Below are positions 25,561 through 43,361 of a stretch of 64,000 bases of DNA, in pieces; position 1 is the first letter of the stretch, and every line of letters begins with the position of its first letter. Below the pieces are notes generated by a model. The model worked only from the letters and a program-made list of their open reading frames with translations, was not told the DNA's origin and ran no database searches. The stretch is from NCBI RefSeq assembly GCF_029227855.1, contig NZ_CP074356.1, one strand, 5' to 3'. Origin of the DNA: Escherichia coli (lineage in GTDB: Bacteria; Pseudomonadota; Gammaproteobacteria; Enterobacterales; Enterobacteriaceae). The translations under genes were made by a program, and so were the position numbers.

Positions 25561-26998
25561 GCCATTTCAGCGCCCGTTTTCGCTGGCAACCCGCCTGACC
25601 TTTTTTATCAGCCTGGCCACCATCGCGGCGTTTTTCGCCTTTGCCTGGATCATGATTCACTCGGTAAAAGTGCATTTTGCTGAGCAGGATATTAATGATT
25701 TAAAAGAGATTAGCGCCACACTCAAGCGCGTTCTTAATCATCCCGAAGAGACACAAGCCCGACGCTTAATGACGCTGGAAGATATCGTCAGTGGTTATTC
25801 CAATGTGTTGATTTCCCTGGCAGATAGCCAGGGTAAAACGGTGTATCACTCCCCCGGTGCGCCGGATATCCGCGAGTTTACGCGTGACGCCATACCCGAT
25901 AAAGACACGCGGGGCGGCGAGGTGTATCTCCTTTCCGGCCCGACGATTATGATGCCGGGCCACGGTCACGGGCATATGGAACACAGCAACTGGCGGATGA
26001 TTAACTTGCCGGTTGGCCCGTTGGTGGACGGCAAACCGATTTATACGCTCTACATCGCGCTTTCGATCGATTTTCATCTTCATTACATAAATGATTTGAT
26101 GAATAAACTTATTATGACCGCATCGATCATCAGCATCCTGATCGTCTTTATCGTGCTGTTGGCGGTACATAAAGGTCACGCACCGATCCGCAGCGTCAGC
26201 CGTCAAATCCAGAACATTACCTCGAAAGATCTCGACGTTCGCCTTGACCCGCAGACCGTGCCGATTGAGCTGGAACAGCTGGTACTGTCGTTCAACCATA
26301 TGATCGAGCGTATTGAGGATGTCTTTACTCGCCAGTCCAATTTCTCAGCGGATATCGCTCACGAAATTCGTACACCAATTACGAATCTCATCACGCAAAC
26401 GGAAATCGCCCTCAGCCAGTCGCGCAGCCAGAAGGAGCTGGAAGATGTGCTCTACTCTAATCTCGAAGAGCTGACGCGAATGGCGAAAATGGTCAGCGAT
26501 ATGCTGTTTCTCGCCCAGGCCGATAACAACCAGTTAATCCCCGAAAAGAAAATGCTCAACCTGGCGGATGAAGTCGGCAAAGTGTTCGATTTTTTCGAGG
26601 CATTAGCGGAAGATCGCGGCGTGGAGTTGCGGTTTGTTGGTGACGAGTGTCAGGTTGCGGGCGATCCGCTGATGCTGCGTCGGGCGTTAAGCAACCTGCT
26701 TTCGAACGCCCTGCGTTATACGCCGCCCGGAGAGGCAATTGTTGTGCGCTGCCAGACGGTCGATCACCAGGTGCAAGTTACCGTCGAAAACCCCGGTACG
26801 CCCATTGCGCCCGAGCACTTACCGCGATTGTTTGACCGTTTCTATCGCGTTGACCCTTCCCGCCAGCGAAAAGGTGAAGGTAGCGGTATTGGGCTGGCGA
26901 TAGTGAAATCGATTGTTGTCGCGCATAAAGGCACGGTTGCGGTAACGTCAGATGCGCGGGGGACAAGGTTTGTGATTATGCTGCCGGAGAGAGAGTGA
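25550..26998 (+). CDS. cusS: Copper-sensing histidine kinase CusS
   Basis: Product [23 protein letters not shown]... with H-box [13 protein letters not shown]; overlaps the cusR stop by 11 bp. Confidence 0.94.
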
Positions 26999-27734
26999 TT
27001 ATTAAGTTCAAATTCAGGGCGTGGTGCATCACCTCCTGGTATTGTTGATCAACAAATTAGAGAAAAACTTATTAAACATATGAAATATCGAAGGCTTTTA
27101 TTTTTCAAAGTTTCACGAGATGTTTGTATATGAAACTTAGTTAAATCTGTGTTTCTTCCAATTGTAGATCACAATGCCCTTTCTAAATTTTCATCGTTAT
27201 AAACAAGCCATCTATCATATAAAGCAATGAATAATTTAATCGCGATTAATCATCATTAATTGTTATATTATTCACTCAATCTATTTATCAAGTGAATTTG
27301 ATAAATTCCTAATTTAAAATATCCACTATTGAGCCAGTATTTAACAACGTTAAGATGTGCAATGTGCAGATCATGTTATCAGGGTGGAGCGGTAGCATAT
27401 ATTTCTTATGCAATCATTCATTTTAATAATGTTAATTGGATTATTTATTGCTGTGAATAAAAATATATTATGAATATTGGTTTAACTTTGCGTTTTTGTT
27501 ACTCGTTGTGATATGCGTACCTGTCCTGAATAACGCCAAGAAACAAGAGGTTGAGCTTGTGATTATTTTTTTGACTGAACAGACACCCGTTTCTGTAAAG
27601 TAATATTTAAACAAAATTCTCACATAACCATAGCATTTTCTGTTCCTTCCCTAATAACGTCTGAAGTCGTCCCGCTTATCACATTATCCGCAGTTGTACG
27701 GTACGGATCATTATTCATTTTACTGGAGGTTGCT

Positions 27735-29636
27735 ATGTCAACCGGATTACGTTTCACACTGGAAGTGGACGGCCTGCCGCCGGATGCTTTTGCGGTGGTT
27801 TCCTTTCATCTGAACCAGTCACTCTCTTCGCTCTTTTCCCTCGATCTCTCCCTGGTCAGCCAGCAGTTTCTCTCCCTTGAATTTGCGCAGGTGCTGGACA
27901 AAATGGCCTACCTGACGATATGGCAGGGCGATGAAGTACAGCGCCGGGTGAAAGGCGTGGTGACCTGGTTTGAACTCGGGGAGAACGACAAAAACCAGAT
28001 GCTGTACAGCATGAAGGTGCACCCGCCGCTGTGGCGTGCCGGTCTGCGCCAGAACTTCCGTATCTTCCAGAACGAGGACATCAAAAGCATCCTCGGCACG
28101 ATGTTGCAGGAAAACGGGGTGACCGAATGGAGTCCGCTGTTCAGCGAGCCGCATCCTTCCCGTGAGTTTTGTGTCCAGTACGGTGAGACTGATTACGATT
28201 TCCTGTGCCGGATGGCGGCGGAGGAAGGCATCTTCTTTTATGAGGAGCATGCTTACAAAAGTACCGACCAGAGCCTGGTGCTGTGCGACACAGTCCGCCA
28301 TCTGCCCGAATCTTTTGAAATCCCATGGAACCCGAACACCCGTACCGAGGTGAGCACCCTCTGCATCAGCCAGTTCCGCTACAGCGCACAAATCCGCCCT
28401 TCTTCCGTGGTGACCAAAGACTACACCTTTAAACGCCCCGGCTGGGCCGGACGTTTTGAACAGGAAGGCCAGCACCAGGACTACCAGCGCACGCAGTATG
28501 AAGTGTATGACTACCCCGGACGTTTCAAGGGTGCCCACGGGCAGAACTTTGCCCGCTGGCAGATGGACGGCTGGCGAAACAATGCAGAAACCGCGCGGGG
28601 AATGAGTCGCTCGCCGGAGATATGGCCGGGACGACGAATTGTGCTGACGGGGCATCCGCAGGCGAACCTGAACCGGGAATGGCAGGTGGTGGCAAGTGAA
28701 CTGCACGGCGAACAGCCACAGGCGGTGCCAGGACGGCAGGGAGCGGGGACGGCGCTGGAGAACCATTTTGCGGTGATCCCGGCAGACAGAACATGGCGAC
28801 CACAGCCGTTGCTGAAACCGCTGGTCGACGGCCCGCAGAGCGCTGTCGTGACAGGACCGGCAGGCGAGGAAATCTTCTGCGACGAACATGGTCGCGTGCG
28901 GGTGAAGTTCAACTGGGACCGCTATAACCCGTCAAACCAGGACAGTTCGTGCTGGATCCGTGTGGCACAGGCGTGGGCAGGCACCGGTTTTGGCCACCTG
29001 GCGATACCGCGTGTGGGTCAGGAGGTGATTGTAGACTTCCTCAACGGCGATCCGGACCAGCCGATCATTATGGGGCGCACCTACCACCAGGAAAACCGCA
29101 CCCCCGGCAGCCTGCCGGGAACAAAGACGCAGATGACCATCCGCTCCAAAACGTACATGGGCAGCGGATTTAATGAGCTGAAGTTTGATGATGCGACAGG
29201 GAGAGAACAGGTCTACATCCACGCGCAGAAGAACATGGATACCGAAGTGCTCAACGACCGTACCACCACCGTAAAACACGATCACCACGAAACCGTAAAA
29301 AATGACCAGACGGTCACGATCCAGGAAGGTAACCGCCTTCTTACGGTGGAAAAAGGCCACAAGATCACCGGAGTACTGAAAGGGTCTTTATCTGAGGATG
29401 TCTTTCAGGACAGAGGCACGATTGCCGGTTCGGTGCATGTTGACGCTGTAAACAATGGTGGCGAAGGCGACGGTATACAGGCTTATACGGCGATTAAGGA
29501 AATTTTGCTGGCCGTGGAGGAAAGCAAAATTGCGCTGACGCCGGATGGCATTCAGCTACAGGTCGGGGAATCGACGGTAATCAGGCTGTCGAAGGATGGC
29601 ATCACCATCGTGGGCGGTTCTGTTTTCATCAACTGA
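27735..29636 (+). CDS. vgrG: Type VI secretion spike protein VgrG (Rhs-element Vgr protein)
   Basis: 633-aa ORF MSTGLRFTLEVDGLPPDAFAVVSFHLNQSLSSLFSLDLSL...; gp27/gp5-like organisation, immediately upstream of Eag/PAAR-Rhs genes. Confidence 0.88.
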   Translation: MSTGLRFTLEVDGLPPDAFAVVSFHLNQSLSSLFSLDLSLVSQQFLSLEFAQVLDKMAYLTIWQGDEVQRRVKGVVTWFELGENDKNQMLYSMKVHPPLWRAGLRQNFRIFQNEDIKSILGTMLQENGVTEWSPLFSEPHPSREFCVQYGETDYDFLCRMAAEEGIFFYEEHAYKSTDQSLVLCDTVRHLPESFEIPWNPNTRTEVSTLCISQFRYSAQIRPSSVVTKDYTFKRPGWAGRFEQEGQHQDYQRTQYEVYDYPGRFKGAHGQNFARWQMDGWRNNAETARGMSRSPEIWPGRRIVLTGHPQANLNREWQVVASELHGEQPQAVPGRQGAGTALENHFAVIPADRTWRPQPLLKPLVDGPQSAVVTGPAGEEIFCDEHGRVRVKFNWDRYNPSNQDSSCWIRVAQAWAGTGFGHLAIPRVGQEVIVDFLNGDPDQPIIMGRTYHQENRTPGSLPGTKTQMTIRSKTYMGSGFNELKFDDATGREQVYIHAQKNMDTEVLNDRTTTVKHDHHETVKNDQTVTIQEGNRLLTVEKGHKITGVLKGSLSEDVFQDRGTIAGSVHVDAVNNGGEGDGIQAYTAIKEILLAVEESKIALTPDGIQLQVGESTVIRLSKDGITIVGGSVFIN

Positions 29637-29663
29637 TTCACTCAGATTATCAGGGAGTATTTT

Positions 29664-30125
29664 ATGCAGTTCACTTTTAATGAAGGCCACATTCAACTGC
29701 CGTCTCAATGGCAGGATCAGTCAATGCAGGTCCTGGTGTCCACAGATAACAGTGGCATCAACCTGGTCATTACCCGCGAAGCCGTTCCACAGGGAACCCT
29801 GACACCAGAGCTGTACCAGGAAACGCTGGCGCTGTACCAGGGCAAACTTGATGGGTACACCGAACATGCCTGCCGGGAAATCACTCTGGCAGAGGCCCCG
29901 GCCTGGCTGCTGGATTATTCCTGGAACGGTCCGGAAGATGAGGGGAATCAGGGGCGGATTAGCCAGATAGCCGTATTCCAGCGGCGTGGAGATACGCTGC
30001 TGACCTTCACTTTCAGCACCTCCTTATCCCTGAAGAACAGTCAAAAGACGATGCTGCTGGAGGTGATAAAGAGCTTCACCCCGTTGCCACCGGAGAATGA
30101 CATCCAAAAGGACCAGCCGCGCTGA
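29664..30125 (+). CDS. DUF1795/Eag-family T6SS effector chaperone (EagR-like)
   Basis: 153-aa ORF placed between vgrG and a prePAAR-Rhs gene, the canonical position of Eag chaperones; assignment from context and overall similarity, no HMM run. Confidence 0.7.
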   Translation: MQFTFNEGHIQLPSQWQDQSMQVLVSTDNSGINLVITREAVPQGTLTPELYQETLALYQGKLDGYTEHACREITLAEAPAWLLDYSWNGPEDEGNQGRISQIAVFQRRGDTLLTFTFSTSLSLKNSQKTMLLEVIKSFTPLPPENDIQKDQPR

Positions 30126-30144
30126 CATAAACGAGGGATAACAC

Positions 30145-33100
30145 ATGAGTGAAGGACCAGGCGGGCCACAGGGAGCGACCGCAGGCGGTACGCTGGCAAT
30201 GCGAATGCTGTCACAGCAGGCGATGGTCGCCAGCCAGATGAAACGGGCAGCCAACGACAAAGCCATTGCACAGATGCTGGCATCAAAAAAGTCCGGCCCC
30301 CCCGCCGCCAGGCTGGGCGATGAAATTCAGCACAAGAGTTTTTTGGGGGCGCTGGCAGGGGCCGTGCTGGGGGCGATAGTGACCATCGCAGAAGGTTGCC
30401 TGATTATGGCCGCCTGTGCCACCGGCCCTTATGCGCTGGTTCTGGTGCCTGCGCTGATGTATGCCAGCTATAAGGCGAGTGATTATGTGGAGGAGAAACA
30501 GAACCAGCTTGAATCATGGATAAACAGCTTTTGTGACACGGACGGCGCCATCAATACCGGTTCTGAAAATGTAAACATTAACGGAAAGCCCGCTGCCAGG
30601 GCCGCCGTCACCCTTCCCCCTCCTCCCCCACCTGGAGCAATACCTGAAATCCCACAGGGGGAACCCTCATGGGGTGATATTGCCACTGACCTGCTTGAAT
30701 CGGCAGCGGAAAAAGCAGTACCACTGGCGAAGGCCTGGGGGAACGCTGTTATCACCCTGACGGACAGCAATGCCGGTTTTATGGATCGCGTCAGCGCCGG
30801 CGCATCGCTTCTGTTTCCCGCCGGTCCGGTATTAATGGAGTTTGCCACCATGGTGGGCGGGCGTGGCGAAATCAAAAAAGATGTGGATTTCCCGGAAGCC
30901 GGTGAGGACACGGCGCTCTGCGACAAGGAGAACAAACCACCGAGGATAGCCCAGGGCAGCAGCAACGTCTTTATCAACAATCAGCCCGCCGCGCGCAAGG
31001 GCGACAAACTGGAGTGCAGCGCGGCAATCGTGGAAGGTTCGCCGGACGTCTTTATTGGCGGTGAACAGGTGACCTATCTGGATATCCAGCCAGAGTTCCC
31101 GCCGTGGCAGAGAATGATCCTGGGGGGAATAACGATAGCCAGCTATCTTCTGCCGCCAGCGGGACTGCTGGGAAAACTGAAGAATCTGGCGAGACTCGGC
31201 AAACTGGGGAACCTGCTGGGGAAAAGCGGGAAGCTGCTGGGGGCAAAGCTCGGCGCGTTGCTGGGAAAAACAGATAAGTCGTTAAAAAGTATTGCCAATA
31301 AAGTCATCAGATGGGTAACAGATCCTGTCGATCCGGTAACCGGCGCGTACTGCGACGAACGTACCGACTTTACGCTGGGCCAGACCCTCCCCCTCTCCTT
31401 CACCCGTTTCCACAGTTCTGTACTGCCGCTGCATGGCCTGACCGGCGTGGGCTGGAGCGACTCCTGGAGCGAATACGCCTGGGTGCGTGAACAGGGAAAC
31501 CGGGTGGATATCATCAGCCAGGGAGCCACGCTGAACTTCGCCTTCGACGGTGACAGTGATACGGCGGTTAACCCGTATCACGCCCAGTACATTCTGCGCC
31601 GCCGCGATGATTATCTGGAGCTGTTCGACAGGGATGCACTGAGCAGCCGCTTCTTTTATGACGCCTTTCCGGGAATGCGTCTGCGCCACCCGGTGACTGA
31701 CGATACCAGCGATGACCGCCTGGCACACAGCCCCAATGACCGGATGTACATGCTGGGCGGGATGAGCGACACCGCCAGCAACCGCATCACGTTTGAGCGC
31801 GACAGCCAGTACCGGATCACAGGTGTCAGTCACACCGACGGGATCCGGCTTAAACTGACGTACCACGCCAGCGGCTACCTGAAAGCCATTCACCGCACGG
31901 ATAACGGCATACAGACGCTGGCGACCTACGAACAGGATGCGCGGGGGCGGCTGACAGAAGCGGATGCGCGGCTGGACTACCACCTGTTTTATGAGTACGA
32001 CGCTGCGGACCGGATCATCCGCTGGTCCGATAACGACCAGACGTGGAGCCGTTTCACCTACGATGAACAGGGCCGGTGCGTGAATGTCACCGGGGCGGAG
32101 GGCTATTACAACGCCACGCTGGACTATGGTGACGGCTGCACCACCGTGACGGACGGCAAGGGCATTCACCGTTATTACTATGATCCTGACGGCAATATTC
32201 TGCGGGAAGCAGCGCCGGACGGCAGCACCACCACGTATGAATGGGATGAATTCCATCACCTGCTGGCCCGTCACTCCCCTGCCGGGCGGGTGGAGAAATT
32301 TGAATACAACGCCGCACACGGTCAGTTAAGCCGTTACACGGCGGCAGACGGCGCGGAGTGGCAGTACCGCTATGATGAGCGCGGCCTGCTCAGCAACATC
32401 ACCGACCCTGCCGGGCAGACGTGGACACAGCAGTGTGATGAACGCGGCCTGCCGGTAAGTCTGGTGTCGCCACAGGGCGAAGAGACCCGGCTGGCATACA
32501 CCGCTCAGGGGCTGCTGTCGGGAATATTCCGCCAGGATGAACGGCGTCTGGGCATAGAGTACGACCACCACAACCGGCCGGAAACACTCACCGACGTGAT
32601 GGGCCGTGAACACCACACCGAATACAGCGGTCACGACCTGCCGGTGAAGATGCGCGGCCCCGGCGGTCAGTCAGTGCGGTTGCAGTGGCAGCAGCACCAT
32701 AAACTGAGTGGCCTTGAGCGCACTGGCACCGGCGCGGAAGGGTTCAGCTATGACCGCCACGGCAACCTGCTGGCCTGGACGGACGGCAATGGTGTTGTCT
32801 GGACAATGGAGTACGGCCCGTTCGATTTGCCGGTGGCGCGAACGGACGGTGAAGGCCACCGCTGGCAGTACCGCTATGATAAAGACACGCTGCAACTGAC
32901 AGAAGTCATTAACCCGCAGGGTGAGTCATATCTTTATGTTCTGGATAACTGCGGCCGGGTGACGGAAGAGCATGACTGGGGCGGCGTGGTCTGGCGTTAC
33001 CGCTATGACGCCGATGGCCTGTGTACCGCCAGGGTCAACGGCCTGGAGGAAACCATCCTCTACAGCCGGGACGACGCAGGCCGCCTGGCAGAAGTCATCA

Positions 33101-34974
33101 CGCCGGAAGGCAAAACGCAGTATGCGTATGACAAATCCGGCAGGCTGACGGGTATCTTCAGCCCGGACGGCACATCACAGCGCACCGGCTATGACGAACG
33201 CGGGCGGGTGAATGTCACCACTCAGGGCCGACGGGCCATTGAATACCACTACCCCGATGAACACACCGTCATCCGCTGTATCCTGCCACCGGAAGATGAA
33301 CGCGACAGACACCCCGGTGAATCCCTGCTGAAAACCACGTACCGCTACAACGCAGCCGGAGAACTGGCAGAGGTCATCCTGCCGGAGGATGAGACGCTGA
33401 CGTTCAGCCGTGATGAGGCAGGACGTGAAGTGCTCCGGCACAGTAACCGGGGTTTTGCCTGTGAGCAGGGCTGGAATGCAGCCGGTCAGCTTACCAGCCA
33501 GCGCGCCGGACTTTTCCCGGCAGAAGCCACATGGGGCGGGCTGCTCCCCTCACTGGTACGGGAGTACCGTTACGACAGCGCGGGCAATGTGTCGGCTGTC
33601 ACCAGCCGGGAAGATTACGGACGGGAAACTCGCCGGGAGTACCGGCTGGACCGGAACGGCCAGGTCACGGCGGTGACAGCCTCAGGCACCGGGCTGGGCT
33701 ATGGCGAAGGCGATGAGTCCTATGGCTATGACAGTTGTGGCTACCTGAAGGCGCAGTCTGCGGGCAGGCACCGGATAAGTGAAGAGACTGAGCGGTATGC
33801 CGGAGGCCACCGGCTGAAACAGGCCGGAAACACGCAGTATGACTATGACGCCGCAGGCCGGATGGTCAGCCGCACCAGACACCGTAACGGCTATCGCCCG
33901 GAAACAGAGCGGTTCCGGTGGGACAGCCGGGACCAGCTGACCGGGTATTGCAGCGCACAGGGTGAACAGTGGGAATACCGCCACGACGCCAGCGGCAGAC
34001 GGACGGAAAAACGCTGCGACCGGAAGAAAATCCGCTTCACGTACCTGTGGGACGGCGACAGTATTGCGGAAATCCGGGAATACCGCGATGATAAACTGTA
34101 CAGCGTAAGGCACCTGGTGTTTAACGGCTTTGAGCTGATAAGCCAGCAGTTTAGCCGGGTACGGCAGCCGCACCCGTCCGTGGCCCCGCAGTGGGTGACG
34201 CGGACGAATCATGCGGTGAGCGATCTGACGGGCCGTCCGCTGATGCTCTTTAACAGTGAAGGTAAAACCGTCTGGCGACCGGGACAGACCAGCCTGTGGG
34301 GGCTGGCACTCAGCCTGCCCGCGGACACCGGCTACCCGGACCCGCGCGGGGAACTGGACGCGGAAGCCGACCCCGGCCTGCTGTATGCAGGACAGTGGCA
34401 GGATGCGGAATCCGGGCTGTGCTATAACCGGTTCCGGTATTACGAGCCGGAAACAGGGATGTACCTGGTGAGTGATCCGCTGGGGTTGCTGGGGGGTGAG
34501 CAGACTTACCGGTATGTGCCGAATCCGTGTGGGTATGTTGATCCTTTGGGATTAGCAACATGTCCCATAATCAGACAACGGGTGCTGGCTAACCTTGAAG
34601 CCAGTCGGGCAGCAAGGGCTGCATCTAATTTTGGTAAGAAAAATATCTATGATTTTATCAAGGCAACTCAATCTGCTATCCCTGGCACCTCTATCCCAAA
34701 ATCTTTTGAGATTATAACTGCTAATGGTACTTTCTGGGTACACCCAAATGCTACAAAACATATGGCTGAATATTTGACTCGGAACGGTCTCTCACATTCA
34801 ACTTCTGTAGAGAGCCAAATAATGTTAACAAGTTTTCACGAAGCTGTAAGTTTGGCTAGTGCTCAAGGTATAAAGTATGAAGAAATGATGAATGTTGGCG
34901 GCTGGGAACTAGTATTTAGTCAAGCTAAATCTGACTCGGCTTTATCAGTTATTAAACATGCTCTTTATAAATGA
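30145..34974 (+). CDS. prePAAR/PAAR-domain Rhs polymorphic toxin (T6SS effector) with variable C-terminal toxin domain
   Basis: 1609 aa; prePAAR motif AARLGDEIQH near the N-terminus with hydrophobic helices; PAAR-like segment (GDKLECSAAIVEGSPDVFIGGE); many YD/RHS repeats; PxxxxDPxGL core-end motif (NPCGYVDPLGL) followed by about 150 aa of divergent C-terminus. Confidence 0.9.
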   Translation: MSEGPGGPQGATAGGTLAMRMLSQQAMVASQMKRAANDKAIAQMLASKKSGPPAARLGDEIQHKSFLGALAGAVLGAIVTIAEGCLIMAACATGPYALVLVPALMYASYKASDYVEEKQNQLESWINSFCDTDGAINTGSENVNINGKPAARAAVTLPPPPPPGAIPEIPQGEPSWGDIATDLLESAAEKAVPLAKAWGNAVITLTDSNAGFMDRVSAGASLLFPAGPVLMEFATMVGGRGEIKKDVDFPEAGEDTALCDKENKPPRIAQGSSNVFINNQPAARKGDKLECSAAIVEGSPDVFIGGEQVTYLDIQPEFPPWQRMILGGITIASYLLPPAGLLGKLKNLARLGKLGNLLGKSGKLLGAKLGALLGKTDKSLKSIANKVIRWVTDPVDPVTGAYCDERTDFTLGQTLPLSFTRFHSSVLPLHGLTGVGWSDSWSEYAWVREQGNRVDIISQGATLNFAFDGDSDTAVNPYHAQYILRRRDDYLELFDRDALSSRFFYDAFPGMRLRHPVTDDTSDDRLAHSPNDRMYMLGGMSDTASNRITFERDSQYRITGVSHTDGIRLKLTYHASGYLKAIHRTDNGIQTLATYEQDARGRLTEADARLDYHLFYEYDAADRIIRWSDNDQTWSRFTYDEQGRCVNVTGAEGYYNATLDYGDGCTTVTDGKGIHRYYYDPDGNILREAAPDGSTTTYEWDEFHHLLARHSPAGRVEKFEYNAAHGQLSRYTAADGAEWQYRYDERGLLSNITDPAGQTWTQQCDERGLPVSLVSPQGEETRLAYTAQGLLSGIFRQDERRLGIEYDHHNRPETLTDVMGREHHTEYSGHDLPVKMRGPGGQSVRLQWQQHHKLSGLERTGTGAEGFSYDRHGNLLAWTDGNGVVWTMEYGPFDLPVARTDGEGHRWQYRYDKDTLQLTEVINPQGESYLYVLDNCGRVTEEHDWGGVVWRYRYDADGLCTARVNGLEETILYSRDDAGRLAEVITPEGKTQYAYDKSGRLTGIFSPDGTSQRTGYDERGRVNVTTQGRRAIEYHYPDEHTVIRCILPPEDERDRHPGESLLKTTYRYNAAGELAEVILPEDETLTFSRDEAGREVLRHSNRGFACEQGWNAAGQLTSQRAGLFPAEATWGGLLPSLVREYRYDSAGNVSAVTSREDYGRETRREYRLDRNGQVTAVTASGTGLGYGEGDESYGYDSCGYLKAQSAGRHRISEETERYAGGHRLKQAGNTQYDYDAAGRMVSRTRHRNGYRPETERFRWDSRDQLTGYCSAQGEQWEYRHDASGRRTEKRCDRKKIRFTYLWDGDSIAEIREYRDDKLYSVRHLVFNGFELISQQFSRVRQPHPSVAPQWVTRTNHAVSDLTGRPLMLFNSEGKTVWRPGQTSLWGLALSLPADTGYPDPRGELDAEADPGLLYAGQWQDAESGLCYNRFRYYEPETGMYLVSDPLGLLGGEQTYRYVPNPCGYVDPLGLATCPIIRQRVLANLEASRAARAASNFGKKNIYDFIKATQSAIPGTSIPKSFEIITANGTFWVHPNATKHMAEYLTRNGLSHSTSVESQIMLTSFHEAVSLASAQGIKYEEMMNVGGWELVFSQAKSDSALSVIKHALYK

Positions 34975-35504
34975 CGATTATGCTTACATTAGAAAATGAA
35001 ACAAACTACAAAGATGTTGTTGTTAATATAGATGAATTTGTACCTTTTGATATAACTTTTGGAAAGGGGAGCGAACAGTGTTTGTACTGGAGAGGCGGCA
35101 ATGGTAAAAGTTCTTTGGTTGAAGTTGGGTTAAATATGTACAGCGGAGAAGTAAGTAACATCACACTAGCAAATATCGATTCAGGTGAAATTAACATTAC
35201 AGATGAGATGTTAGCCAACAACCTTCCTGAAATACAAGGGTCTGTTATATTTCAGACAAGCGAGTGGCTTAATAAAGACATTTCCGAATACTCAAACAGA
35301 TTTATTGATGATTTTGATTGCAATATCAAGTTAATAATTGGTAGTAATTACATTAAATTATTATTTAAAAAAGCAACAAATCCCATTTGTTATATCATTA
35401 ATAGGAATATAAGATTTGGTTTTTCTTTGAGTAGGGAACTTTCGACATTGGAAATATTAGACCTCAATCAAGAAAAATTAGATATTCTAAAGTTATTTAA
35501 ATAG
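34971..35504 (+). CDS. Putative cognate immunity protein for the Rhs C-terminal toxin
   Basis: 177-aa ORF whose ATG overlaps the rhs stop (ATGA); markedly AT-rich; position typical of rhsI genes. Confidence 0.7.
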   Translation: MTIMLTLENETNYKDVVVNIDEFVPFDITFGKGSEQCLYWRGGNGKSSLVEVGLNMYSGEVSNITLANIDSGEINITDEMLANNLPEIQGSVIFQTSEWLNKDISEYSNRFIDDFDCNIKLIIGSNYIKLLFKKATNPICYIINRNIRFGFSLSRELSTLEILDLNQEKLDILKLFK

Positions 35505-35983
35505 TTTTAGTGTTTGAAACTTACCGAGAGATGATAGCTATGAATGAATACAAAAACATCCATCTTGGAGGAAACAATGGAATGTTAATCCATTAAAAAA
35601 CATACTTCAATATCTTTAGTGAAGAAAGAGTTGTATGAAAGAAATATATCTTATGTGAGCGACATGATGCATGCTAATTATATTATTGGCCGGAAATTTT
35701 ATGATGATAGCAAAAAGGAGGGGTTATTTCTGTAAGAATGGATATACCCGCAGGGTTTGAACCAGACATTTATTTGTTGAAGTCTAAGATCCAAATGGAA
35801 GCATTTATATCCCTCAGATATTATGCGTTGACGGGTTGATAAAGATACTTTTAGAGGGTTAATAAATGGAGAACGTATAATAAATCTCTTAAACAAACTA
35901 TAACCTGTACTAATGAAAAAAATGGGAATAGATAAGTTAATAGCCTATTCTAAAAATGGTAAAGTGGTTTTACTTCCAAAATA

Positions 35984-36427
35984 ATGGAGTTTAGTATGAA
36001 AATCGAAGCTAATTCCCTTACTCATCCCTATGACTACAACGCCTCACTGAACAATTATTTACATTATTTTGAGAATTTCTCTCGTAATGACTGGAATAAA
36101 GATTCATGTGGAGGATATTTTACTTTTAGAGATGATGACAGAGAGTGTGTTTTGTTTTTTGTGAATTATGGTGATAATTTTTCATTGCGCTATGATTGTA
36201 CACAAAGTTCTGATGGAATAGTGTCATGCTGGTATAGTAACCATGAAGATGATAAAATGAATATCATCGTCGATGCTGATACAGAACAATTTATCCCTTT
36301 AGGTTCTTGCTTACCTCCTGATATTACTTTATCAGTAATAAAAGATTTTTTCAAAAATCCTTTAGAGAAATCAAAAAAAGTAAAATGGATGAATGCAGAT
36401 GACATTGACTGGTCATCTGTGTATTAA
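35984..36427 (+). CDS. Hypothetical protein, possible orphan immunity gene
   Basis: 147-aa ORF in AT-rich DNA downstream of the toxin/immunity pair; no recognisable motif. Confidence 0.4.
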   Translation: MEFSMKIEANSLTHPYDYNASLNNYLHYFENFSRNDWNKDSCGGYFTFRDDDRECVLFFVNYGDNFSLRYDCTQSSDGIVSCWYSNHEDDKMNIIVDADTEQFIPLGSCLPPDITLSVIKDFFKNPLEKSKKVKWMNADDIDWSSVY

Positions 36428-37318
36428 AGTTGGATTGGATAATTATCTGTTTCAAAAATCATTAAATTTAGAACCTATCTGTTCAACAGAGCTGCCTTGA
36501 ACAGCAGGTTCTTTTATGATGTCCAGGAGCGAATATGCCTGTGATGTCTGGCACTCAGCATCTGACTGACCTGGACTACTGATCCTACTCACACAGGGAG
36601 CTAGACCTGGAAGCAACCTACTGTAAGCAGTGCAGTAGCAGCCCACCTCACATCAGTCCTTGCAAGGTGTGGGCCTTTGTGATCTTGCTCTGTATTGCTG
36701 AGATCCTCAGGAAGGACTCGAAATTTAATCAGGAAGGCCGTTGCTAAAAATCAAAAAATAAATTCAAGAGCAATTTCTAAAACTTTTGAATCTACTGTAT
36801 CGGATGAGGTTTTCACTCCTTTCCAAAAGGTGAGTTTTCAAGCATTCAAGTTTCTGTTATGACCAAAACTTCACCATTTAACACTAATCCGAGTATTATG
36901 TTACCATGAAGAAAAAAGATATTAGATTTGCAATATCCATTAACTCCAACTCAAGTAAGATAGAATTAATGGAAAAATTAAAAACATAATCCCAGGGCTT
37001 ATTGAAATAACTCCCAGTGCATTAAGAGAAGAAAAAACATGGTAGTTATTGAAGATAATGATCTTTATGACTCTATAAAAGCAGAGGGAGTTGATGGATG
37101 GATGTATTATAAATTCATATTATCCATATTCCCATTAAAGGGAGTAGACACAACATTAGAATATCAACGGAAATTATCTTTTCTTTTCTTAAAGAAATTA
37201 AAAGATGCGGGTCTGTTAGGTGAACTTATATGCGAGGATGATTTTCATGACTGATGACCTCTACATATATCCTCAGTTCGTGGCTGGTATTACATGATCT
37301 GACAGGGAAAGATCGTAG

Positions 37319-37613
37319 CGAAATCAAAAAAGACGTGGATTTCCCGGAAGCCGGTGAAGACACGGCGCTCTGCGACAAGGAGACTAAACCGCCGAGGATA
37401 GCCCAGGGCAGCAGCAACGTTTTTATCAACAATCAGCCTGCCGCACGCCAGGGAGACAAACTGGAGTGCAGTGCGGCGATCGTGGAAGGTTCGCCGGACG
37501 TCTTTATTGGGGGTGAGCAGGTCACCTATCTGGATATCCAGCCGGAGTTCCCGCCGTGGCAGAGAATGATCCTGGGGGGAATAACGATAGCCAGCTATCT
37601 TCTGCCGCCAGCG
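37319..37613 (+). pseudogene. Duplicated fragment of the Rhs PAAR-domain region
   Basis: 295 bp nearly identical to 30867-31161 of the full-length rhs gene; encodes EIKKDVDFPEAGEDTALCDK...ITIASYLLPPA inside ORF 37254..37631; lacks the N-terminus and core. Confidence 0.85.
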
Positions 37614-37750
37614 CAGGGAAAGATCACGTAACGCTGCTTTTTTGTACTAAATAATTCGCACTAAATGTTCAATAATTGAGATATTCCTTATTACCTAAAT
37701 ACAGTTCCACCAAGATTACCTAAACCCAAATGAGGTAAAAGATAGTGGGT

Positions 37751-38112
37751 ATGAATAAAAATGAAATCCATTTCCCTATAGGATATGGTTGGTTGAATGA
37801 AAAAAAATTATTGGCACCAGTGAATTTAGCCAATTAGAACCATGGTTTTATCTAGATGAGAACAGGTGTTTTTTTGCGAATAAAAAATGGCCAAATGTCA
37901 TAGGTGAACAATTATTCGCTTTTGCTAAACGTCAAGATAATGATGAATTGGCTTGTTTCAAAATTAATGAATCTGGAGTCTGTGAGGGTGTTTATTTAAT
38001 TAATGGGTGGACTCCTAACGGGTTTGATATTATACAATTTTACCCTGATTTTTGGGAATGGGTACATTTGGTTATACAAGATGTCTCGGAGTGGATTGAT
38101 AATAAAGGATAA
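37751..38112 (+). pseudogene. Frameshifted small gene (immunity-protein-like) with an A8 tract at the frame switch
   Basis: ATG at 37751 reads 27 codons to a stop; a shifted frame from about 37813 continues for 99 codons to TAA at 38110-38112; the shift coincides with gaaaaaaaatt at 37798-37808. Confidence 0.45.
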
Positions 38113-38141
38113 TTTGAAACAAAAGTAAAAAACCGCCTTCA

Positions 38142-38840
38142 TTGAAGGTAACGTGGAGTGGTGGGCGGAGCAGCCTGCCCGCAGACACAGACTACCCGGA
38201 CCCGCGCGGGGAGCGGGACGCGGAAGCCGACCCCGGCCTGCTGTATGCAGGACAGTGGCAGGATGCGGAATCCGGACTGTGCTATAACCGGTTCCGGTAT
38301 TACGAGCCGGAAACCGGGATGTACCTGGTGAGTGATCCCCTGGGGTTGCTGGGGGGTGAGCAGACTTACCGGTATGTGCCTAATCCTAGTGGGTATGTTG
38401 ATCCTCTGGGATTAGCAACGTGTCCTATACTCAGACAGTGGGCGCTGACTAACCTTGAAGCCAGTCGGGCAGCAAGGGCTGCATCTAATTTTGGTAAGCC
38501 TCTGGTCCAGCGAAATAAAACGATTGGCGATAAAGTAAGGGATATGATTGCCAAAGAGAGGGGAACCACTCTAATTGAACAAAATTATAGAGTGACAGGA
38601 GGATTAAAGCGTATTGACGTTGTTGATGGAGTAACGGGTATAGAATCTAAAGTCGATCGAACAGGGTTAACAACCCGAGTACGGCAAGAGGTAGCGCGGG
38701 ATATTAAGATTTTGAGAAGTGAGCAACTTGATCAAATTGAATGGGTGTTTACAAGAAGTTCAACTACAGGGAAGATTGGGCCAACTAAACCACTTGAAGA
38801 TCTTTTAAATAAACATGGTATACCGATTATTTATCGATAA
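38142..38840 (+). CDS. Orphan Rhs C-terminal fragment: core end (DPxGL) plus alternative C-terminal toxin domain, candidate PD-(D/E)xK nuclease
   Basis: 38171-38498 nearly identical to 34311-34638 of the full rhs; the C-terminal domain diverges after ...AASNFGK; contains RIDVVDG...GIESK; the ORF begins at TTG and has no PAAR or core of its own. Confidence 0.7.
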   Translation: MKVTWSGGRSSLPADTDYPDPRGERDAEADPGLLYAGQWQDAESGLCYNRFRYYEPETGMYLVSDPLGLLGGEQTYRYVPNPSGYVDPLGLATCPILRQWALTNLEASRAARAASNFGKPLVQRNKTIGDKVRDMIAKERGTTLIEQNYRVTGGLKRIDVVDGVTGIESKVDRTGLTTRVRQEVARDIKILRSEQLDQIEWVFTRSSTTGKIGPTKPLEDLLNKHGIPIIYR

Positions 38841-38851
38841 GGAGTGATAGT

Positions 38852-39409
38852 GTGAAACTCAAACCGATTGGTGACTTTTTAAACAAAAATGGGTTTATAA
38901 AAAATGGTAACAATGATTTTTATAAAGTTCATGATAAGTTTGTAAATTGTATAAATTTTCAAAAAAAGAGTACAGGTGATATTTTTTTTATAAACACAGG
39001 TGTTCATCCTGTGTTCGAAAATTTTTGCAATGAACCACCGAAAAAAGAAATAGATTGTTACATCCGTAACCGTGTGTGTGATGGACTAAGTATATCTTTG
39101 CTGCATTCTTTTGAAGGTAGTGAGTTTGTTATCAGTGAGATAAAAAACAAAGCGTTTTGTTTTTTTGAATACTTTGATTCATTGAATAAAATATTCGATG
39201 CTATTCGTGTTGTAGATATTGAAGAGAGAAATATTTGCGATGAGCTAAGTGGTGTAAGCAGCGTAAGATTAGCTTTGATGTGTATGAACTACCAGTATGA
39301 GAAAAAAAAATTTAGCCTTGTTTCTGATTTTGCGAACTATGGTCTTGCTATATCTAGAGGCCCGGTACCGAAAAAAGCATTTAAGGATATGATAAAAATA
39401 ACAGAGTGA
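38852..39409 (+). CDS. Putative immunity protein for the orphan Rhs C-terminal toxin
   Basis: 185-aa AT-rich ORF with GTG start 11 bp after the orphan toxin stop and GGAG upstream. Confidence 0.6.
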   Translation: MKLKPIGDFLNKNGFIKNGNNDFYKVHDKFVNCINFQKKSTGDIFFINTGVHPVFENFCNEPPKKEIDCYIRNRVCDGLSISLLHSFEGSEFVISEIKNKAFCFFEYFDSLNKIFDAIRVVDIEERNICDELSGVSSVRLALMCMNYQYEKKKFSLVSDFANYGLAISRGPVPKKAFKDMIKITE

Positions 39410-39434
39410 TACCTAATCCGGTGTAATACTTGCT

Positions 39435-39646
39435 GCCTGTGTACCGCGAAGATTAACGGCCGGGAGGAAACTATTCTCTACAACCGGGACGCCACAGGCC
39501 GCCTGGCAGAAGTCATCACGCCGGAAGGCAAAACGCAGTATGCGTATGACAAATCCGGCAGGCTGACGGGTATCTTCAGCCCGGACGACACATCACAGCG
39601 CACCGGCTATGAAGAACGCGGGCGGGTGAATGTCACCACTCAGGGC
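39435..39646 (+). pseudogene. Internal Rhs core fragment
   Basis: About 210 bp at roughly 90% identity to 33018-33228 of the full-length rhs; truncated at both ends, abutting the ISAs1 left end. Confidence 0.8.
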
Positions 39647-40936
39647 AGGGAAAGATCATCCAAAGTACACTTTTTGTACTAAATAATTCGCATTTTATGT
39701 TTAAAAATGGAGATATTCCTCATTACCTAAAGCTGTTTTTTATTGCTTATACATGATCAAATACTCCTTACATAATTAAGGAGAACAAAATGGAACTTAA
39801 AAAATTGATGGAACATATTTCTATTATCCCCGATTACAGACAAGCCTGGAAAGTGGAACATAAATTATCGGATATTCTGCTGTTGACTATTTGTGCCGTT
39901 ATTTCGGGTGCAGAAGGCTGGGAAGATATAGAGGATTTTGGGGAAACACATCTCGATTTTTTGAAGCAATATGGTGATTTTGATAATGGTATTCCTGTTC
40001 ACGATACCATCGCCAGAGTTATATCCTGTATCAGTCCTTCAAAATTTCACGAGTGTTTTATTAACTGGATGCGAGATTGCCATACTTCAGATGATAAAGA
40101 CGTCATCGCAATTGATGGAAAAACACTCCGGCATTCTTATGACAAGAGTCGCCGCAAGGGAGCGATTCATGTCATTAGTGCGTTCTCAACAATGCACAGT
40201 CTGGTCATCGGACAGATCAGGACGGATGAGAAATCCAATGAAATTACAGCTATCCCTGAACTTCTTAACATGCTGGATATTAAAGGAAAAATCATCACAA
40301 CTGATGCGATGGGTTGCCAGAAAGATATTGCAGAGAAGATACAAAAACAGGGCGGTGATTATTTATTCGCTGTAAAAGGAAACCAGGGGCGGCTAAATAA
40401 AGCCTTCGAGGAAAAATTTCCGCTGAAAGAATTAAATAATCCAGAGCATGACAGTTACGCCATTAGTGAAAAGAGTCACGGCAGAGAAGAAATCCGTCTT
40501 CATATTGTTTGCGATGTCCCTGATGAACTTATTGATTTCACGTTTGAATGGAAAGGACTGAAGAAATTATGCGTGGCAGTCTCTTTTCGGTCAATAATAG
40601 CAGAACAAAAGAAAGAGCCAGAAATGACGGTCAGATATTATATCAGTTCTGCTGATTTAACCGCAGAGAAGTTCGCCACAGCAATCCGAAACCACTGGCG
40701 CGTGGAGAATAAGCTGCACTGGCGTCTGGACGTGGTAATGAATGAAGACGACTGCAAAATAAGAAGAGGAAACGCCGCAGAATTATTTTCAGGGATACGG
40801 CACATCGCTATTAATATTTTAACGAATGATAAGGTATTCAAGGCAGGGTTAAGACGTAAGATGCGAAAAGCAGCCATGGACAGAAACTATCTCGCGTCAG
40901 TCCTTGCGGGGAGCGGGCTTTCGTAATCTTGCCCTG
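39646..40936 (+). mobile_element. ISAs1-family insertion sequence (H-repeat element), about 1.29 kb
   Basis: Imperfect terminal inverted repeats CAGGGAAAGATCA (39646-39658) and TAATCTTGCCCTG (40924-40936); single transposase ORF; inserted in rhs-derived sequence. Confidence 0.75.
39790..40926 (+). CDS. ISAs1-family transposase (H-repeat-associated protein, YhhI/YdcC-like)
   Basis: 378-aa [55 protein letters not shown]...; the stop codon lies inside the right inverted repeat. Confidence 0.88.
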
Positions 40937-41123
40937 CGTTAACCGCCCCTCCTTGACACCACGCTTTTGTCTACATTCTACACAAACGGCAACTTTTATA
41001 ACCAGTGTAAAAATAACGTGCCGCAATAGTCATACCTATTAATGGTAAAAAGCTGTCACAATTCATAAAAAACCTTAATATACGCCACCCTAAACATAAC
41101 CAGCGTTAATGTAAGGTTTTTGT

Positions 41124-43361
41124 GTGGACTGGCTTCTTGATGTTTTTGCTACCTGGCTCTACGGCTTAAAAGTAATCGCGATAACGTTAGCGGTCATCAT
41201 GTTCATCAGCGGGCTGGACGATTTTTTTATTGATGTCGTCTACTGGGTACGCCGCATTAAACGCAAGTTGAGTGTTTATCGCCGCTACCCGCGAATGAGT
41301 TACCGCGAACTGTATAAACCAGATGAAAAACCGTTAGCGATTATGGTTCCGGCGTGGAATGAAACGGGCGTCATCGGCAATATGGCCGAGCTGGCGGCGA
41401 CCACGCTCGACTATGAAAACTATCATATCTTTGTTGGCACCTACCCCAACGACCCCGATACACAGCGTGATGTTGACGAAGTGTGCGCTCGCTTCCCGAA
41501 CGTGCATAAGGTAGTCTGCGCGCGTCCTGGCCCCACCAGCAAAGCCGACTGCCTGAACAACGTGCTGGACGCCATCACCCAGTTTGAGCGTAGCGCCAAT
41601 TTCGCTTTTGCTGGTTTTATTCTGCATGACGCCGAAGACGTAATTTCACCGATGGAATTGCGTCTGTTCAACTATCTGGTCGAGCGTAAAGATCTGATTC
41701 AGATCCCGGTGTATCCGTTCGAACGCGAATGGACGCACTTCACCAGCATGACTTACATTGATGAGTTTTCAGAACTGCATGGCAAAGATGTTCCGGTGCG
41801 TGAAGCCCTCGCCGGACAAGTGCCCAGCGCAGGCGTCGGTACCTGTTTCAGCCGCCGCGCCGTGACCGCACTGTTAGCTGACGGTGACGGTATTGCTTTC
41901 GACGTGCAGAGTCTTACTGAAGATTACGACATTGGTTTCCGCCTGAAAGAAAAAGGTATGACGGAAATTTTTGTCCGTTTTCCGGTGGTGGACGAAGCCA
42001 AAGAACGCGAGCAGCGTAAATTTTTACAGCACGCGCGGACGTCAAACATGATCTGCGTGCGCGAATATTTCCCTGATACCTTTTCGACTGCGGTTCGACA
42101 AAAATCTCGCTGGATCATCGGCATTGTTTTCCAGGGCTTTAAAACCCACAAATGGACCTCCAGCCTGACGCTGAACTACTTTCTCTGGCGCGACCGCAAA
42201 GGGGCAATCAGTAACTTTGTCAGCTTTCTCGCGATGCTGGTGATGATCCAGCTTCTGCTGTTACTGGCGTATGAAAGTTTGTGGCCCGATGCCTGGCATT
42301 TCCTTTCTATTTTCAGCGGCAGCGCATGGTTAATGACCCTGCTGTGGCTAAACTTTGGTTTGATGGTTAACCGCATCGTGCAGCGGGTGATTTTTGTCAC
42401 TGGCTACTACGGTCTGACGCAGGGGCTGCTATCTGTCCTGCGTCTTTTCTGGGGCAACCTGATTAACTTCATGGCCAACTGGCGCGCGTTAAAACAGGTA
42501 CTTCAACACGGCGATCCACGTCGTGTCGCGTGGGATAAAACAACGCATGACTTCCCCAGCGTGACTGGCGATACCCGCTCGTTGCGCCCGTTAGGCCAAA
42601 TTCTGCTGGAAAATCAGGTCATCACTGAAGAACAACTCGATACAGCACTGCGTAATCGCGTCGAAGGTCTACGCCTGGGCGGTTCAATGCTGATGCAGGG
42701 GCTGATTAGCGCCGAACAGCTGGCACAGGCGCTGGCAGAGCAAAACGGCGTGGCGTGGGAATCCATCGACGCCTGGCAGATCCCGTCCTCGCTGATTGCC
42801 GAAATGCCGGCCTCCGTGGCGCTGCATTATGCAGTGCTGCCGCTGCGTCTGGAAAATGATGAGTTAATTGTCGGCAGTGAAGATGGTATTGACCCGGTTT
42901 CGCTGGCGGCCCTGACGCGTAAAGTCGGACGCAAAGTGCGTTACGTCATTGTTCTGCGGGGACAAATTGTCACGGGGTTACGCCACTGGTATGCGCGCCG
43001 ACGCGGTCACGATCCGCGGGCAATGTTGTACAATGCGGTTCAGCATCAGTGGCTCACGGAACAGCAGGCCGGTGAAATCTGGCGGCAATATGTGCCGCAT
43101 CAGTTCCTGTTCGCCGAAATACTGACCACGCTCGGTCATATTAATCGTTCAGCAATTAACGTGTTGTTATTGCGCCATGAACGCAGTTCTCTGCCGCTCG
43201 GCAAGTTTTTGGTCACCGAAGGCGTTATCAGCCAGGAAACGTTGGATCGCGTCCTGACAATTCAACGCGAATTACAAGTTTCGATGCAATCACTATTACT
43301 CAAAGCAGGTTTAAATACAGAACAGGTTGCGCAACTGGAGTCCGAAAATGAAGGAGAATAA
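41124..43361 (+). CDS. nfrB: NfrB, phage N4 adsorption protein B (family-2 glycosyltransferase with C-terminal c-di-GMP-binding domain)
   Basis: 745-aa product MDWLLDVFATWLYGLKVIAITLAVIMF...; GTG start. Confidence 0.93.
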   Translation: MDWLLDVFATWLYGLKVIAITLAVIMFISGLDDFFIDVVYWVRRIKRKLSVYRRYPRMSYRELYKPDEKPLAIMVPAWNETGVIGNMAELAATTLDYENYHIFVGTYPNDPDTQRDVDEVCARFPNVHKVVCARPGPTSKADCLNNVLDAITQFERSANFAFAGFILHDAEDVISPMELRLFNYLVERKDLIQIPVYPFEREWTHFTSMTYIDEFSELHGKDVPVREALAGQVPSAGVGTCFSRRAVTALLADGDGIAFDVQSLTEDYDIGFRLKEKGMTEIFVRFPVVDEAKEREQRKFLQHARTSNMICVREYFPDTFSTAVRQKSRWIIGIVFQGFKTHKWTSSLTLNYFLWRDRKGAISNFVSFLAMLVMIQLLLLLAYESLWPDAWHFLSIFSGSAWLMTLLWLNFGLMVNRIVQRVIFVTGYYGLTQGLLSVLRLFWGNLINFMANWRALKQVLQHGDPRRVAWDKTTHDFPSVTGDTRSLRPLGQILLENQVITEEQLDTALRNRVEGLRLGGSMLMQGLISAEQLAQALAEQNGVAWESIDAWQIPSSLIAEMPASVALHYAVLPLRLENDELIVGSEDGIDPVSLAALTRKVGRKVRYVIVLRGQIVTGLRHWYARRRGHDPRAMLYNAVQHQWLTEQQAGEIWRQYVPHQFLFAEILTTLGHINRSAINVLLLRHERSSLPLGKFLVTEGVISQETLDRVLTIQRELQVSMQSLLLKAGLNTEQVAQLESENEGE

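What the first reader, a model, noticed from the sequence alone, without database searches (positions are those of the whole stretch)
39435..39646. Internal Rhs core fragment abutting the ISAs1 left end
About 210 bp at roughly 90% identity to rhs 33018-33228 lies between the orphan immunity gene and the IS. Identity ends exactly where the IS inverted repeat begins, so an H-repeat element inserted into, and then truncated, a second rhs copy or an earlier arrangement of this one.
Basis: seen in the sequence. Interest (0 to 1): 0.4.

Follow-up and report, generated by a model that had tools for sequence, protein, structure and literature searches.

The report
Dead Rhs gene stub beside IS
This is a short, non-functional leftover of an older Rhs toxin gene copy, cut off by the H-repeat insertion sequence that caps this E. 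coli Rhs island; it is real, but it is an ordinary kind of genomic debris already described for this locus.

Summary
Window 39435-39646 matches the resident rhs gene at 33017-33228 over 212 bp with no gaps, at 94.3% identity (not ~90%), E = 2e-92. The match stops at the first base of a complete 1291-bp H-repeat (ISEc1-like, ISAs1 family) at 39646-40936.

The window is an E. coli vgrG-Eag-PAAR-Rhs island between cusS and nfrB, which is "position 4" (clade IV rhs) of Jackson et al. 2009. That paper already noted tip-less core fragments downstream of rhs at this locus.

The same IS, in the same orientation, sits at the nfrB-proximal end of every island examined in other strains. Its left end meets a different sequence in each lineage:
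- another internal rhs scrap, in 831 of 5426 genomes;
- sequence downstream of an immunity gene, in 317 genomes;
- the main rhs gene itself, in about 44 genomes;
- an orphan toxin tip, in strain LR-60.

Two divergent genomes carry the orthologous fragment running 26 bp further, so the present junction is probably secondary.

The fragment has no start codon, toxin tip or immunity partner. Its right two-thirds appear homogenised with the co-resident rhs.

Verdict: a pseudogene stub created by tip displacement plus IS-associated truncation. Low interest.

The parts
39418..39434 (+). Degenerate left extension of the rhs fragment (about rhs 33000-33016), starting 8 bp after the DUF4304 stop codon
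   Evidence: Three-way alignment with WL297 and the main rhs. In L010 and L008 the homology runs over rhs 33000-33254. Inferred by orthology; only about 8/17 identity to the window's own rhs.
39435..39645 (+). Internal Rhs core fragment (equivalent to rhs nt 2873-3084, aa 959-1028; two YD repeats), with no start codon, tip or immunity partner
   Evidence: 94.3% identity over 212 bp, E = 2e-92. Pfam RHS_repeat E = 2.2e-14. G+C 59%. PGAP annotates it in strain 7/2 as a partial pseudogene missing both termini.
39646..40936 (+). Complete 1291-bp H-repeat / ISEc1-like ISAs1-family IS. Imperfect terminal repeats CAGGGAAAGATCAT / CAGGGCAAGATTAC (11/14). Transposase ORF 39790-40926.
   Evidence: Matches K-12 H-rptB, E and C.2 over positions 1-1291 at 95-96%. 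Pfam DDE_Tnp_1_assoc plus DDE_Tnp_1. No flanking direct repeat.
40937..40982 (+). Last 46 bp of the island between the IS right end and the K-12 backbone (nfrB upstream region). 70 bp shorter than in most strains.
   Evidence: K-12 homology resumes at 40983. F467, H14 and about 2460 genomes carry 116 bp here. LR-60 shares the 46-bp state.
33017..33228 (+). Paralogous segment inside the resident full-length PAAR-Rhs gene (30145-34974)
   Evidence: There is a 93-bp run of perfect identity with the fragment.
38142..39409 (+). Orphan module immediately upstream: core end (38171-38498 = rhs 34311-34638, 94.2%) plus toxin tip (to 38840) plus DUF4304 immunity gene (38852-39409)
   Evidence: The same module-fragment-IS order occurs in WL297 and 2013C-4282 at about 93% identity.
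37314..37699 (+). Second case of the same pattern: a 300-bp rhs PAAR-region fragment (= rhs 30862-31161, 94.3%) abutting an 86-bp remnant of an H-repeat left end (37614-37699)
36647..36692 (+). 46-bp remnant of an H-repeat right end (78% to 40891-40936)
   Evidence: Weak match (E = 6e-4), but it ends exactly at the IS terminus.

Best explanation
The fragment is an inert stub of an older rhs copy at the far (nfrB) end of the orphan array of the clade-IV Rhs island. Proposed history, with status marked. (1) An rhs copy, or a long-core orphan beginning near rhs nt 2856, lay just downstream of the DUF4304 immunity gene, as expected from successive C-terminal tip displacement (inferred; Jackson 2009 model). 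(2) An H-repeat removed everything to its right, either by inserting and then deleting or recombining with the island's resident H-repeat, or by an IS-adjacent deletion. This left core sequence up to nt 3110 against the IS left end. The arrangement is shown directly in 2013C-4282 and WL297, where this IS abuts nt 525 of a second H-repeat. (3) In the window's lineage the junction was reshaped again: 26 bp less of rhs, a different sequence type in the first ~30 nt of the IS, a single IS, and 70 bp less on the right. These differences are shown; the mechanism is inferred. (4) The stub encodes nothing functional, but its right 152 bp has been kept near-identical to a co-resident rhs copy by gene conversion, while the left 60 bp decays (inferred from the mismatch distribution).
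For: The homology is real and ends at the IS terminus. The fragment has no start codon, no hyperconserved core end, no tip and no immunity gene. The orthologous immunity-fragment-IS arrangement occurs in an island allele that is 7-8% divergent, with rhs extending to 33254 and with the structure IS-1|IS-2(nt 525-1291)|116 bp. An H-repeat in the same orientation occupies the nfrB-proximal end of every island examined in other strains. Its left junctions differ (831 genomes H14-type, 317 O157-type, ~111 this type, ~44 F467-type, 2 WL297-type, plus LR-60), while only two right-junction states were seen. A long-core orphan starting at rhs nt 2584 exists at this locus in 2013C-4282. Ten of the 12 mismatches fall in the first 60 bp. 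The last 152 bp differ by 2 from the window's main rhs. In 2013C-4282 the fragment's last 152 bp differ by 3 from the neighbouring orphan but by 8 from its main rhs. Jackson et al. 2009 (PMC2935791) describe tip-less downstream core fragments at this locus.
Against: No genome was found with the predicted intact precursor, that is, the DUF4304 gene followed by a complete long-core orphan; the DUF4304 module occurs in only 114 of 5426 genomes. Lack of a target duplication is not diagnostic, because the K-12 H-repeats also lack one. H-repeat transposition has not been observed experimentally (statement in PMC3032704). The 26-bp difference comes with a different IS left-end sequence, so independent truncations 26 bp apart are not excluded. 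The three ~94% fragments in the window are not collinear with a single old gene. Only a handful of genomes were inspected base by base.
Confidence: 0.7

Rival explanations
1. Truncated then repaired. The main rhs was first cut by the H-repeat at about nt 3110, as in F467-type strains. It was later restored by single-crossover (Campbell-type) integration of a circular piece carrying core nt ~2856 to the end, plus the toxin tip and the DUF4304 gene. The stub is then the duplicated homology segment left next to the IS.
For: About 44 genomes do have the main rhs cut by the IS, at nt 3405. The stub begins only 8 bp after the immunity gene's stop codon, as expected for the closure point of a circle. 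Jackson's model invokes such circles.
Against: No genome has the main rhs cut at nt 3084 or 3110. This model predicts that the stub's right part differs from the co-resident copy by the parental divergence, whereas it is nearly identical, so conversion must be invoked anyway. No circular intermediates are known for this locus.
Confidence: 0.17
2. Independent, lineage-specific event. An H-repeat inserted into, or deleted up to, the old rhs copy at nt 3084 in the ST405-like lineage, separately from the nt 3110 event in WL297 and 2013C-4282.
For: The first ~30 nt of the IS are of a different sequence type in the two lineages. The right flanks differ (46 bp here versus IS-2 plus 116 bp there). H-repeats pile up next to one another, as in K-12 RhsC.
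Against: Two independent end points within 26 bp would be a coincidence, roughly 2% for a 2-3 kb target by my rough estimate. The left junction and shared derived bases (fragment positions 13 and 15) show the fragments are orthologous.
Confidence: 0.1
3. The fragment is a functional element: either a silent cassette kept for recombination with the main rhs (switching, or deletion of the 6.4-kb toxin/immunity block), or a translated peptide.
For: A 93-bp perfect identity run in direct orientation with the main rhs would permit RecA-dependent recombination. There are signs of gene conversion. The reading frame is open from 39410 to 39679, in phase with the immunity gene.
Against: It has no start codon or tip. 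Eight of 70 residues are changed. The predicted recombinant (main rhs joined to the IS at nt 3084) is absent from 5426 genomes. Equivalent scraps sit at arbitrary core positions in other lineages.
Confidence: 0.03

Closest known systems
Tip-less downstream core-domain fragments at E. coli rhs 'position 4' (nfrB-cusS, clade IV), Jackson et al. 2009, BMC Genomics 10:584, Fig. 5
   Same: Same chromosomal locus and the same kind of object: a piece of the core domain downstream of the intact rhs with no associated tip. The 831-genome H14-type scrap (rhs nt 1425-1604) is probably what that figure shows; I could not check this, because figures are not held.
   Different: This fragment comes from a different core position (nt 2873-3084) and occurs in a different lineage (about 111 genomes, ST405-like). 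The paper's text does not mention the IS: searches for H-repeat, insertion sequence and transposase found nothing.
Dissociated / orphan rhs C-terminal tips (Jackson 2009; Poole et al. 2011, PMC3150448)
   Same: It lies in the same array downstream of the main rhs and shares core homology with it in direct orientation.
   Different: Orphans keep the 3' end of the core, a toxin tip and an immunity gene. This piece is internal and has none of them.
H-repeats (H-rpt; ISEc1, ISAs1 family) of K-12 RhsB, RhsC and RhsE elements (Hill laboratory papers of the 1990s, recalled from memory)
   Same: A 1291-bp element with the same termini, 95-96% identical, located at the distal end of an Rhs element, with no flanking direct repeats.
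   Different: In K-12 RhsB, RhsC and RhsE no internal rhs scrap abuts the H-repeat left end. At the cusS-nfrB island such scraps are the commonest state.
IS-mediated adjacent deletions, or IS-IS recombination deletions (general IS biology)
   Same: The IS stays in the same place and orientation while the sequence at one end differs between relatives. Flanks are unrelated to each other. One IS abuts the interior of another in 2013C-4282.
   Different: The mechanism is not demonstrated for H-repeats. The right junction also has two states, and IS sequence types are mosaic.

Membership tests
Rhs / YD-repeat core sequence | Nucleotide homology to an rhs core and YD (RHS_repeat) motifs in the translation | tested here: met
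   94.3% over 212 bp to the resident rhs. Pfam PF05593 at E = 2.2e-14, two repeats.
Functional Rhs toxin gene | N-terminal PAAR/clade domain, full beta-cocoon core, hyperconserved PxxxxDPxGL end, C-terminal toxin and a cognate immunity gene | tested here: not met
   Only aa 959-1028 are represented. There is no start codon, and an IS follows directly.
Orphan (dissociated) rhs tip module | Partial core that includes the 3' conserved end, followed by a toxin tip and an immunity gene | tested here: not met
   Homology ends at rhs nt 3084 of 4830. The next base belongs to the IS.
ISAs1 family / H-repeat (ISEc1) | About 1.3-kb element with CAGGG...CCCTG imperfect terminal inverted repeats | tested here: met
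   1291 bp, termini 11/14 complementary, matching K-12 H-repeats end to end.
ISAs1 family / H-repeat (ISEc1) | Single DDE transposase ORF (DDE_Tnp_1_assoc plus DDE_Tnp_1) | tested here: met
   378-aa ORF at 39790-40926. Pfam E = 6e-34 and 7e-31.
ISAs1 family / H-repeat (ISEc1) | 8-10 bp target-site duplication (family description recalled from ISfinder) | tested here: not met
   Flanks are CCACTCAGGG and CGTTAACCGC. The duplication is also absent from K-12 RhsB, RhsE and RhsC.2 and from F467 and H14.
Product of IS-associated deletion | IS end joined to sequences that are not contiguous in relatives, with material missing relative to them | tested here: met
   26 bp missing on the left versus WL297 and 2013C-4282. 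70 bp missing on the right versus about 2460 genomes. IS-1 abuts nt 525 of IS-2 in 2013C-4282.
Product of IS-associated deletion | The deletion was catalysed by the transposase, rather than by homologous or microhomology recombination | not testable with these tools
   Only end products are visible. A 3-bp CAG microhomology flanks the 26-bp difference.

The most novel reading that the evidence does not exclude
The H-repeat at the distal end of this island may be more than a passive passenger: it could repeatedly trim the orphan array. New tips would enter at the rhs core, older modules would be pushed towards the IS, and they would be destroyed there by IS-adjacent deletions or by incoming H-repeat copies that recombine with the resident one. 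Seven or more left-end junctions against two right-end junctions would then be comparative evidence that H-repeats, never seen to transpose in the laboratory, are or were active, and would give a reason for the long-noted Rhs/H-repeat association.
Probability: 0.25. Interest if true: 0.35.

Novelty: already known. Interest (0 to 1): 0.12.

Why it matters
On its own it matters little. It is a pseudogene scrap, useful mainly as a marker of the history of this Rhs island and as a lineage marker for about 111 ST405-like genomes. It does document that internal rhs scraps against the H-repeat left end are the normal state of the cusS-nfrB island. It also shows that such scraps still exchange sequence with the live gene. 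Both points are small additions to the C-terminal-displacement picture of Rhs evolution, and they give a possible handle on whether H-repeats are active elements.

Tried and rejected
- Target-site duplication: none was found, but it is uninformative because K-12 H-repeats also lack one.
- The island's 116-bp right flank as rhs continuing after the F467 cut. This would have made F467 a simple insertion, given the 8/9 flank similarity CTGCTCCCC / CTGCTCACC. The local alignment score was at shuffle level (14 versus mean 13.2, maximum 20), so this was rejected.
- A genome with the main rhs joined to the IS at nt 3084, searched with a chimeric query: none. All roughly 45 full-coverage hits were two or more joined pieces, nearly all of the nt-3405 F467 type.
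- A closer donor rhs for the fragment: the other rhs genes in the rows listed reached at most 94.8%.
- More of a second IS behind the 86-bp remnant at 37614-37699: tblastn with the transposase found nothing, and the alignment diverges after about 86 bp.
- Internal rhs scraps next to the K-12 RhsB, RhsC and RhsE H-repeats: none.
- Using IS sequence to decide which copy the window's IS descends from: it is about 96% identical to every copy compared, so uninformative.
- Literature on ISAs1 with Rhs: nothing relevant beyond Jackson 2009 and the E. coli W genome paper.
- Technical note: several fetched loci were not copied to the script machine and had to be fetched again.

Full report
**Observation.** BLASTN of the region against the whole window aligns 39435-39646 with 33017-33228. 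The alignment is 212 bp with 12 mismatches and no gaps, 94.3% identity, E = 2e-92. The piece has the G+C of the rhs core (59% versus 60%). It sits between a 31% G+C immunity gene and a 40% G+C IS. Its translation matches Pfam RHS_repeat at E = 2.2e-14. It corresponds to aa 959-1028 of the 1609-aa PAAR-Rhs protein encoded at 30145-34974.

**The IS boundary.** The adjacent element runs from 39646 to 40936, 1291 bp. Its termini are CAGGGAAAGATCAT and ...GTAATCTTGCCCTG, and it carries one ORF (39790-40926) with DDE_Tnp_1_assoc and DDE_Tnp_1 domains. The ends were fixed independently of the rhs homology. The K-12 H-repeats of RhsB, RhsE and RhsC.2 lie in unrelated contexts and match positions 1-1291 at 95-96%. 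The rhs identity stops at 39645/39646, so the claim that identity ends where the IS repeat begins is correct. There is no flanking direct repeat, but none of the K-12 copies has one either, so this is not diagnostic.

**Context.**
- The window is E. coli. The 8 kb around the finding is 99.8% identical to ST2747, ST405-like and O102:H6 genomes.
- K-12 homology stops at 26976 (the cusS side) and resumes at 40983 (upstream of nfrB).
- The island therefore spans 26977-40982. It holds vgrG, a DcrB/Eag-type chaperone gene, the PAAR-Rhs gene, its immunity gene, an array of orphan pieces, and the IS 46 bp from the right boundary.
- This is rhs "position 4" (nfrB-cusS, clade IV) of Jackson et al. 2009 (PMC2935791). 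[quoted passage not shown] It also remarks that H-repeat transposition has not been observed (PMC3032704).

**Other rhs and IS scraps in the array.**
- 37314-37613 equals rhs 30862-31161 (PAAR region, 94.3%). It abuts an 86-bp remnant of an H-repeat left end at 37614-37699.
- 38171-38498 equals rhs 34311-34638 (94.2%). This is the core end of a genuine orphan toxin (to 38840), followed by the DUF4304 immunity gene.
- A 41-bp rhs scrap lies at 36479-36519.
- A 46-bp remnant of an H-repeat right end lies at 36647-36692.

The "rhs piece against an H-repeat left end" pattern thus occurs twice in this window.

**Comparison with other strains.** About 2460 of 5426 complete E. coli genomes carry the island's 116-bp right end. 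Every island-bearing strain I examined has an H-repeat there in the same orientation. What abuts the IS left end differs:

| Junction type | What abuts the IS left end | Genomes |
|---|---|---|
| H14 | 180-bp internal rhs scrap (= rhs 31569-31748) | 831 |
| O157:H7 | Sequence 70 bp downstream of an immunity gene (H14 arrangement minus 314 bp, different IS variant) | 317 |
| This window | The fragment under study | about 111 |
| F467 | The main rhs itself, cut at nt 3405 | about 44 |
| LR-60 | An orphan toxin tip | not counted |
| WL297 / 2013C-4282 | The orthologous fragment, 26 bp longer | 2 |

The right junction has only two observed states: 116 bp, or 46 bp (this window and LR-60). A chimeric query joining the main rhs at nt 3084 to the IS found no genome with that direct junction. 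In K-12 RhsB, RhsC and RhsE no rhs scrap abuts the H-repeat.

**The orthologous fragment.**
- In WL297 and 2013C-4282 the whole segment (orphan core end, toxin tip, DUF4304 gene, fragment, IS) aligns with window 38171-40924 at 93.1%, with a single 26-bp gap.
- There the fragment matches rhs 33000-33254. It starts in the same place, right after the immunity gene's stop codon, and runs 26 bp further before the IS.
- The first ~30 nt of that IS are of a different sequence type.
- In 2013C-4282 this IS carries a group II intron near its right end. Its right terminus abuts nt 525 of a second H-repeat, which is followed by the usual 116 bp.
- So that IS has rhs nt 3110 on one side and the interior of another IS on the other. 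This is the footprint of an IS-associated deletion that removed the rest of the rhs copy.
- The fragment-IS association therefore predates the 7-8% divergence of these island alleles, and the window's junction is most simply a later reshaping.
- Independent truncation 26 bp away cannot be excluded.

**Mismatch pattern.** Ten of the 12 mismatches lie in the first 60 bp. The last 152 bp differ by only 2 from the window's main rhs. In 2013C-4282 the fragment's last 152 bp differ by 3 from the neighbouring long-core orphan but by 8 from that strain's main rhs. The first 60 bp of both fragments are far more divergent (10-15 differences) than full-length alleles are from each other (1-4). They also share derived bases at positions 13 and 15. 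I read this as common origin of the two fragments, neutral decay at the left edge, and gene conversion of the remainder by co-resident rhs copies. This is inference.

**Function.** None is indicated. The fragment has no start codon, toxin tip or immunity partner, and 8 of 70 residues are changed. The reading frame is open from 39410 to a stop at about 39680 inside the IS, in phase with the immunity gene. A one-in-three coincidence suffices to explain that. The 93-bp perfect identity run with the main rhs could support a 6.4-kb deletion by homologous recombination, but that product was not found in 5426 genomes.

**Verdict.** The object is a pseudogene stub of a kind already noted at this very locus. 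Its only wider interest is that the pattern of left-end junctions across strains hints that H-repeats may actively trim Rhs orphan arrays.

Noticed in passing
window 37314-37699: A 300-bp fragment of the rhs PAAR region (= 30862-31161, 94.3%) abuts an 86-bp remnant of an H-repeat left end of the O157/WL297 sequence type. This is the same 'rhs piece against IS left end' pattern at a different core position (nt 1017).
   Followed up: partly
window 36479-36692: A 41-bp rhs scrap (= 31621-31661, 80%) is followed 126 bp later by a 46-bp remnant of an H-repeat right end (36647-36692, 78%) that stops exactly at the IS terminus. The scrap falls inside the core interval carried by the H14-type fragment, so this may be a decayed H14-type fragment-IS junction.
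   Followed up: no
window 37751-38113: An orphan ORF of 120 aa in strain 7/2 (no Pfam hit, possibly an immunity gene) is frameshifted in the window at an A-run.
   Followed up: partly
window 30145-34974 and 41124-43361 versus L001: In strain 7/2 (99.8% identical) both the main rhs and nfrB are annotated as pseudogenes with internal stops. In the window both are intact ORFs (1609 aa and 745 aa).
   Followed up: no
L010 13474-17419 (2013C-4282); also L008 (WL297): A group II intron (ltrA, opposite strand) is inserted at about nt 1276/1277 of the H-repeat, at the transposase stop codon. This IS directly abuts nt 525 of a second, 5'-truncated H-repeat.
   Followed up: partly
L002 12525-13835 (F467 type, about 44 genomes): The main rhs is cut at nt 3405 by the H-repeat. 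The 9 bp on either side of the IS are 8/9 identical (CTGCTCCCC / CTGCTCACC), although the right flank is not rhs-derived. This may be microhomology or chance.
   Followed up: partly
L009 (NRZ14408): A relative of the window's island has gained one more displaced tip (an extra 2.3-kb orphan carrying the window's current tip) and an IS3-family insertion at the end of the DUF4304 gene. This shows ongoing turnover within the lineage.
   Followed up: no
L011 8303-10926 (K-12 RhsC): Three or four H-repeat pieces lie head to tail (positions 1-381, 1-1291, 25-911, 1225-1291), so H-repeats tend to pile up into or next to one another.
   Followed up: no
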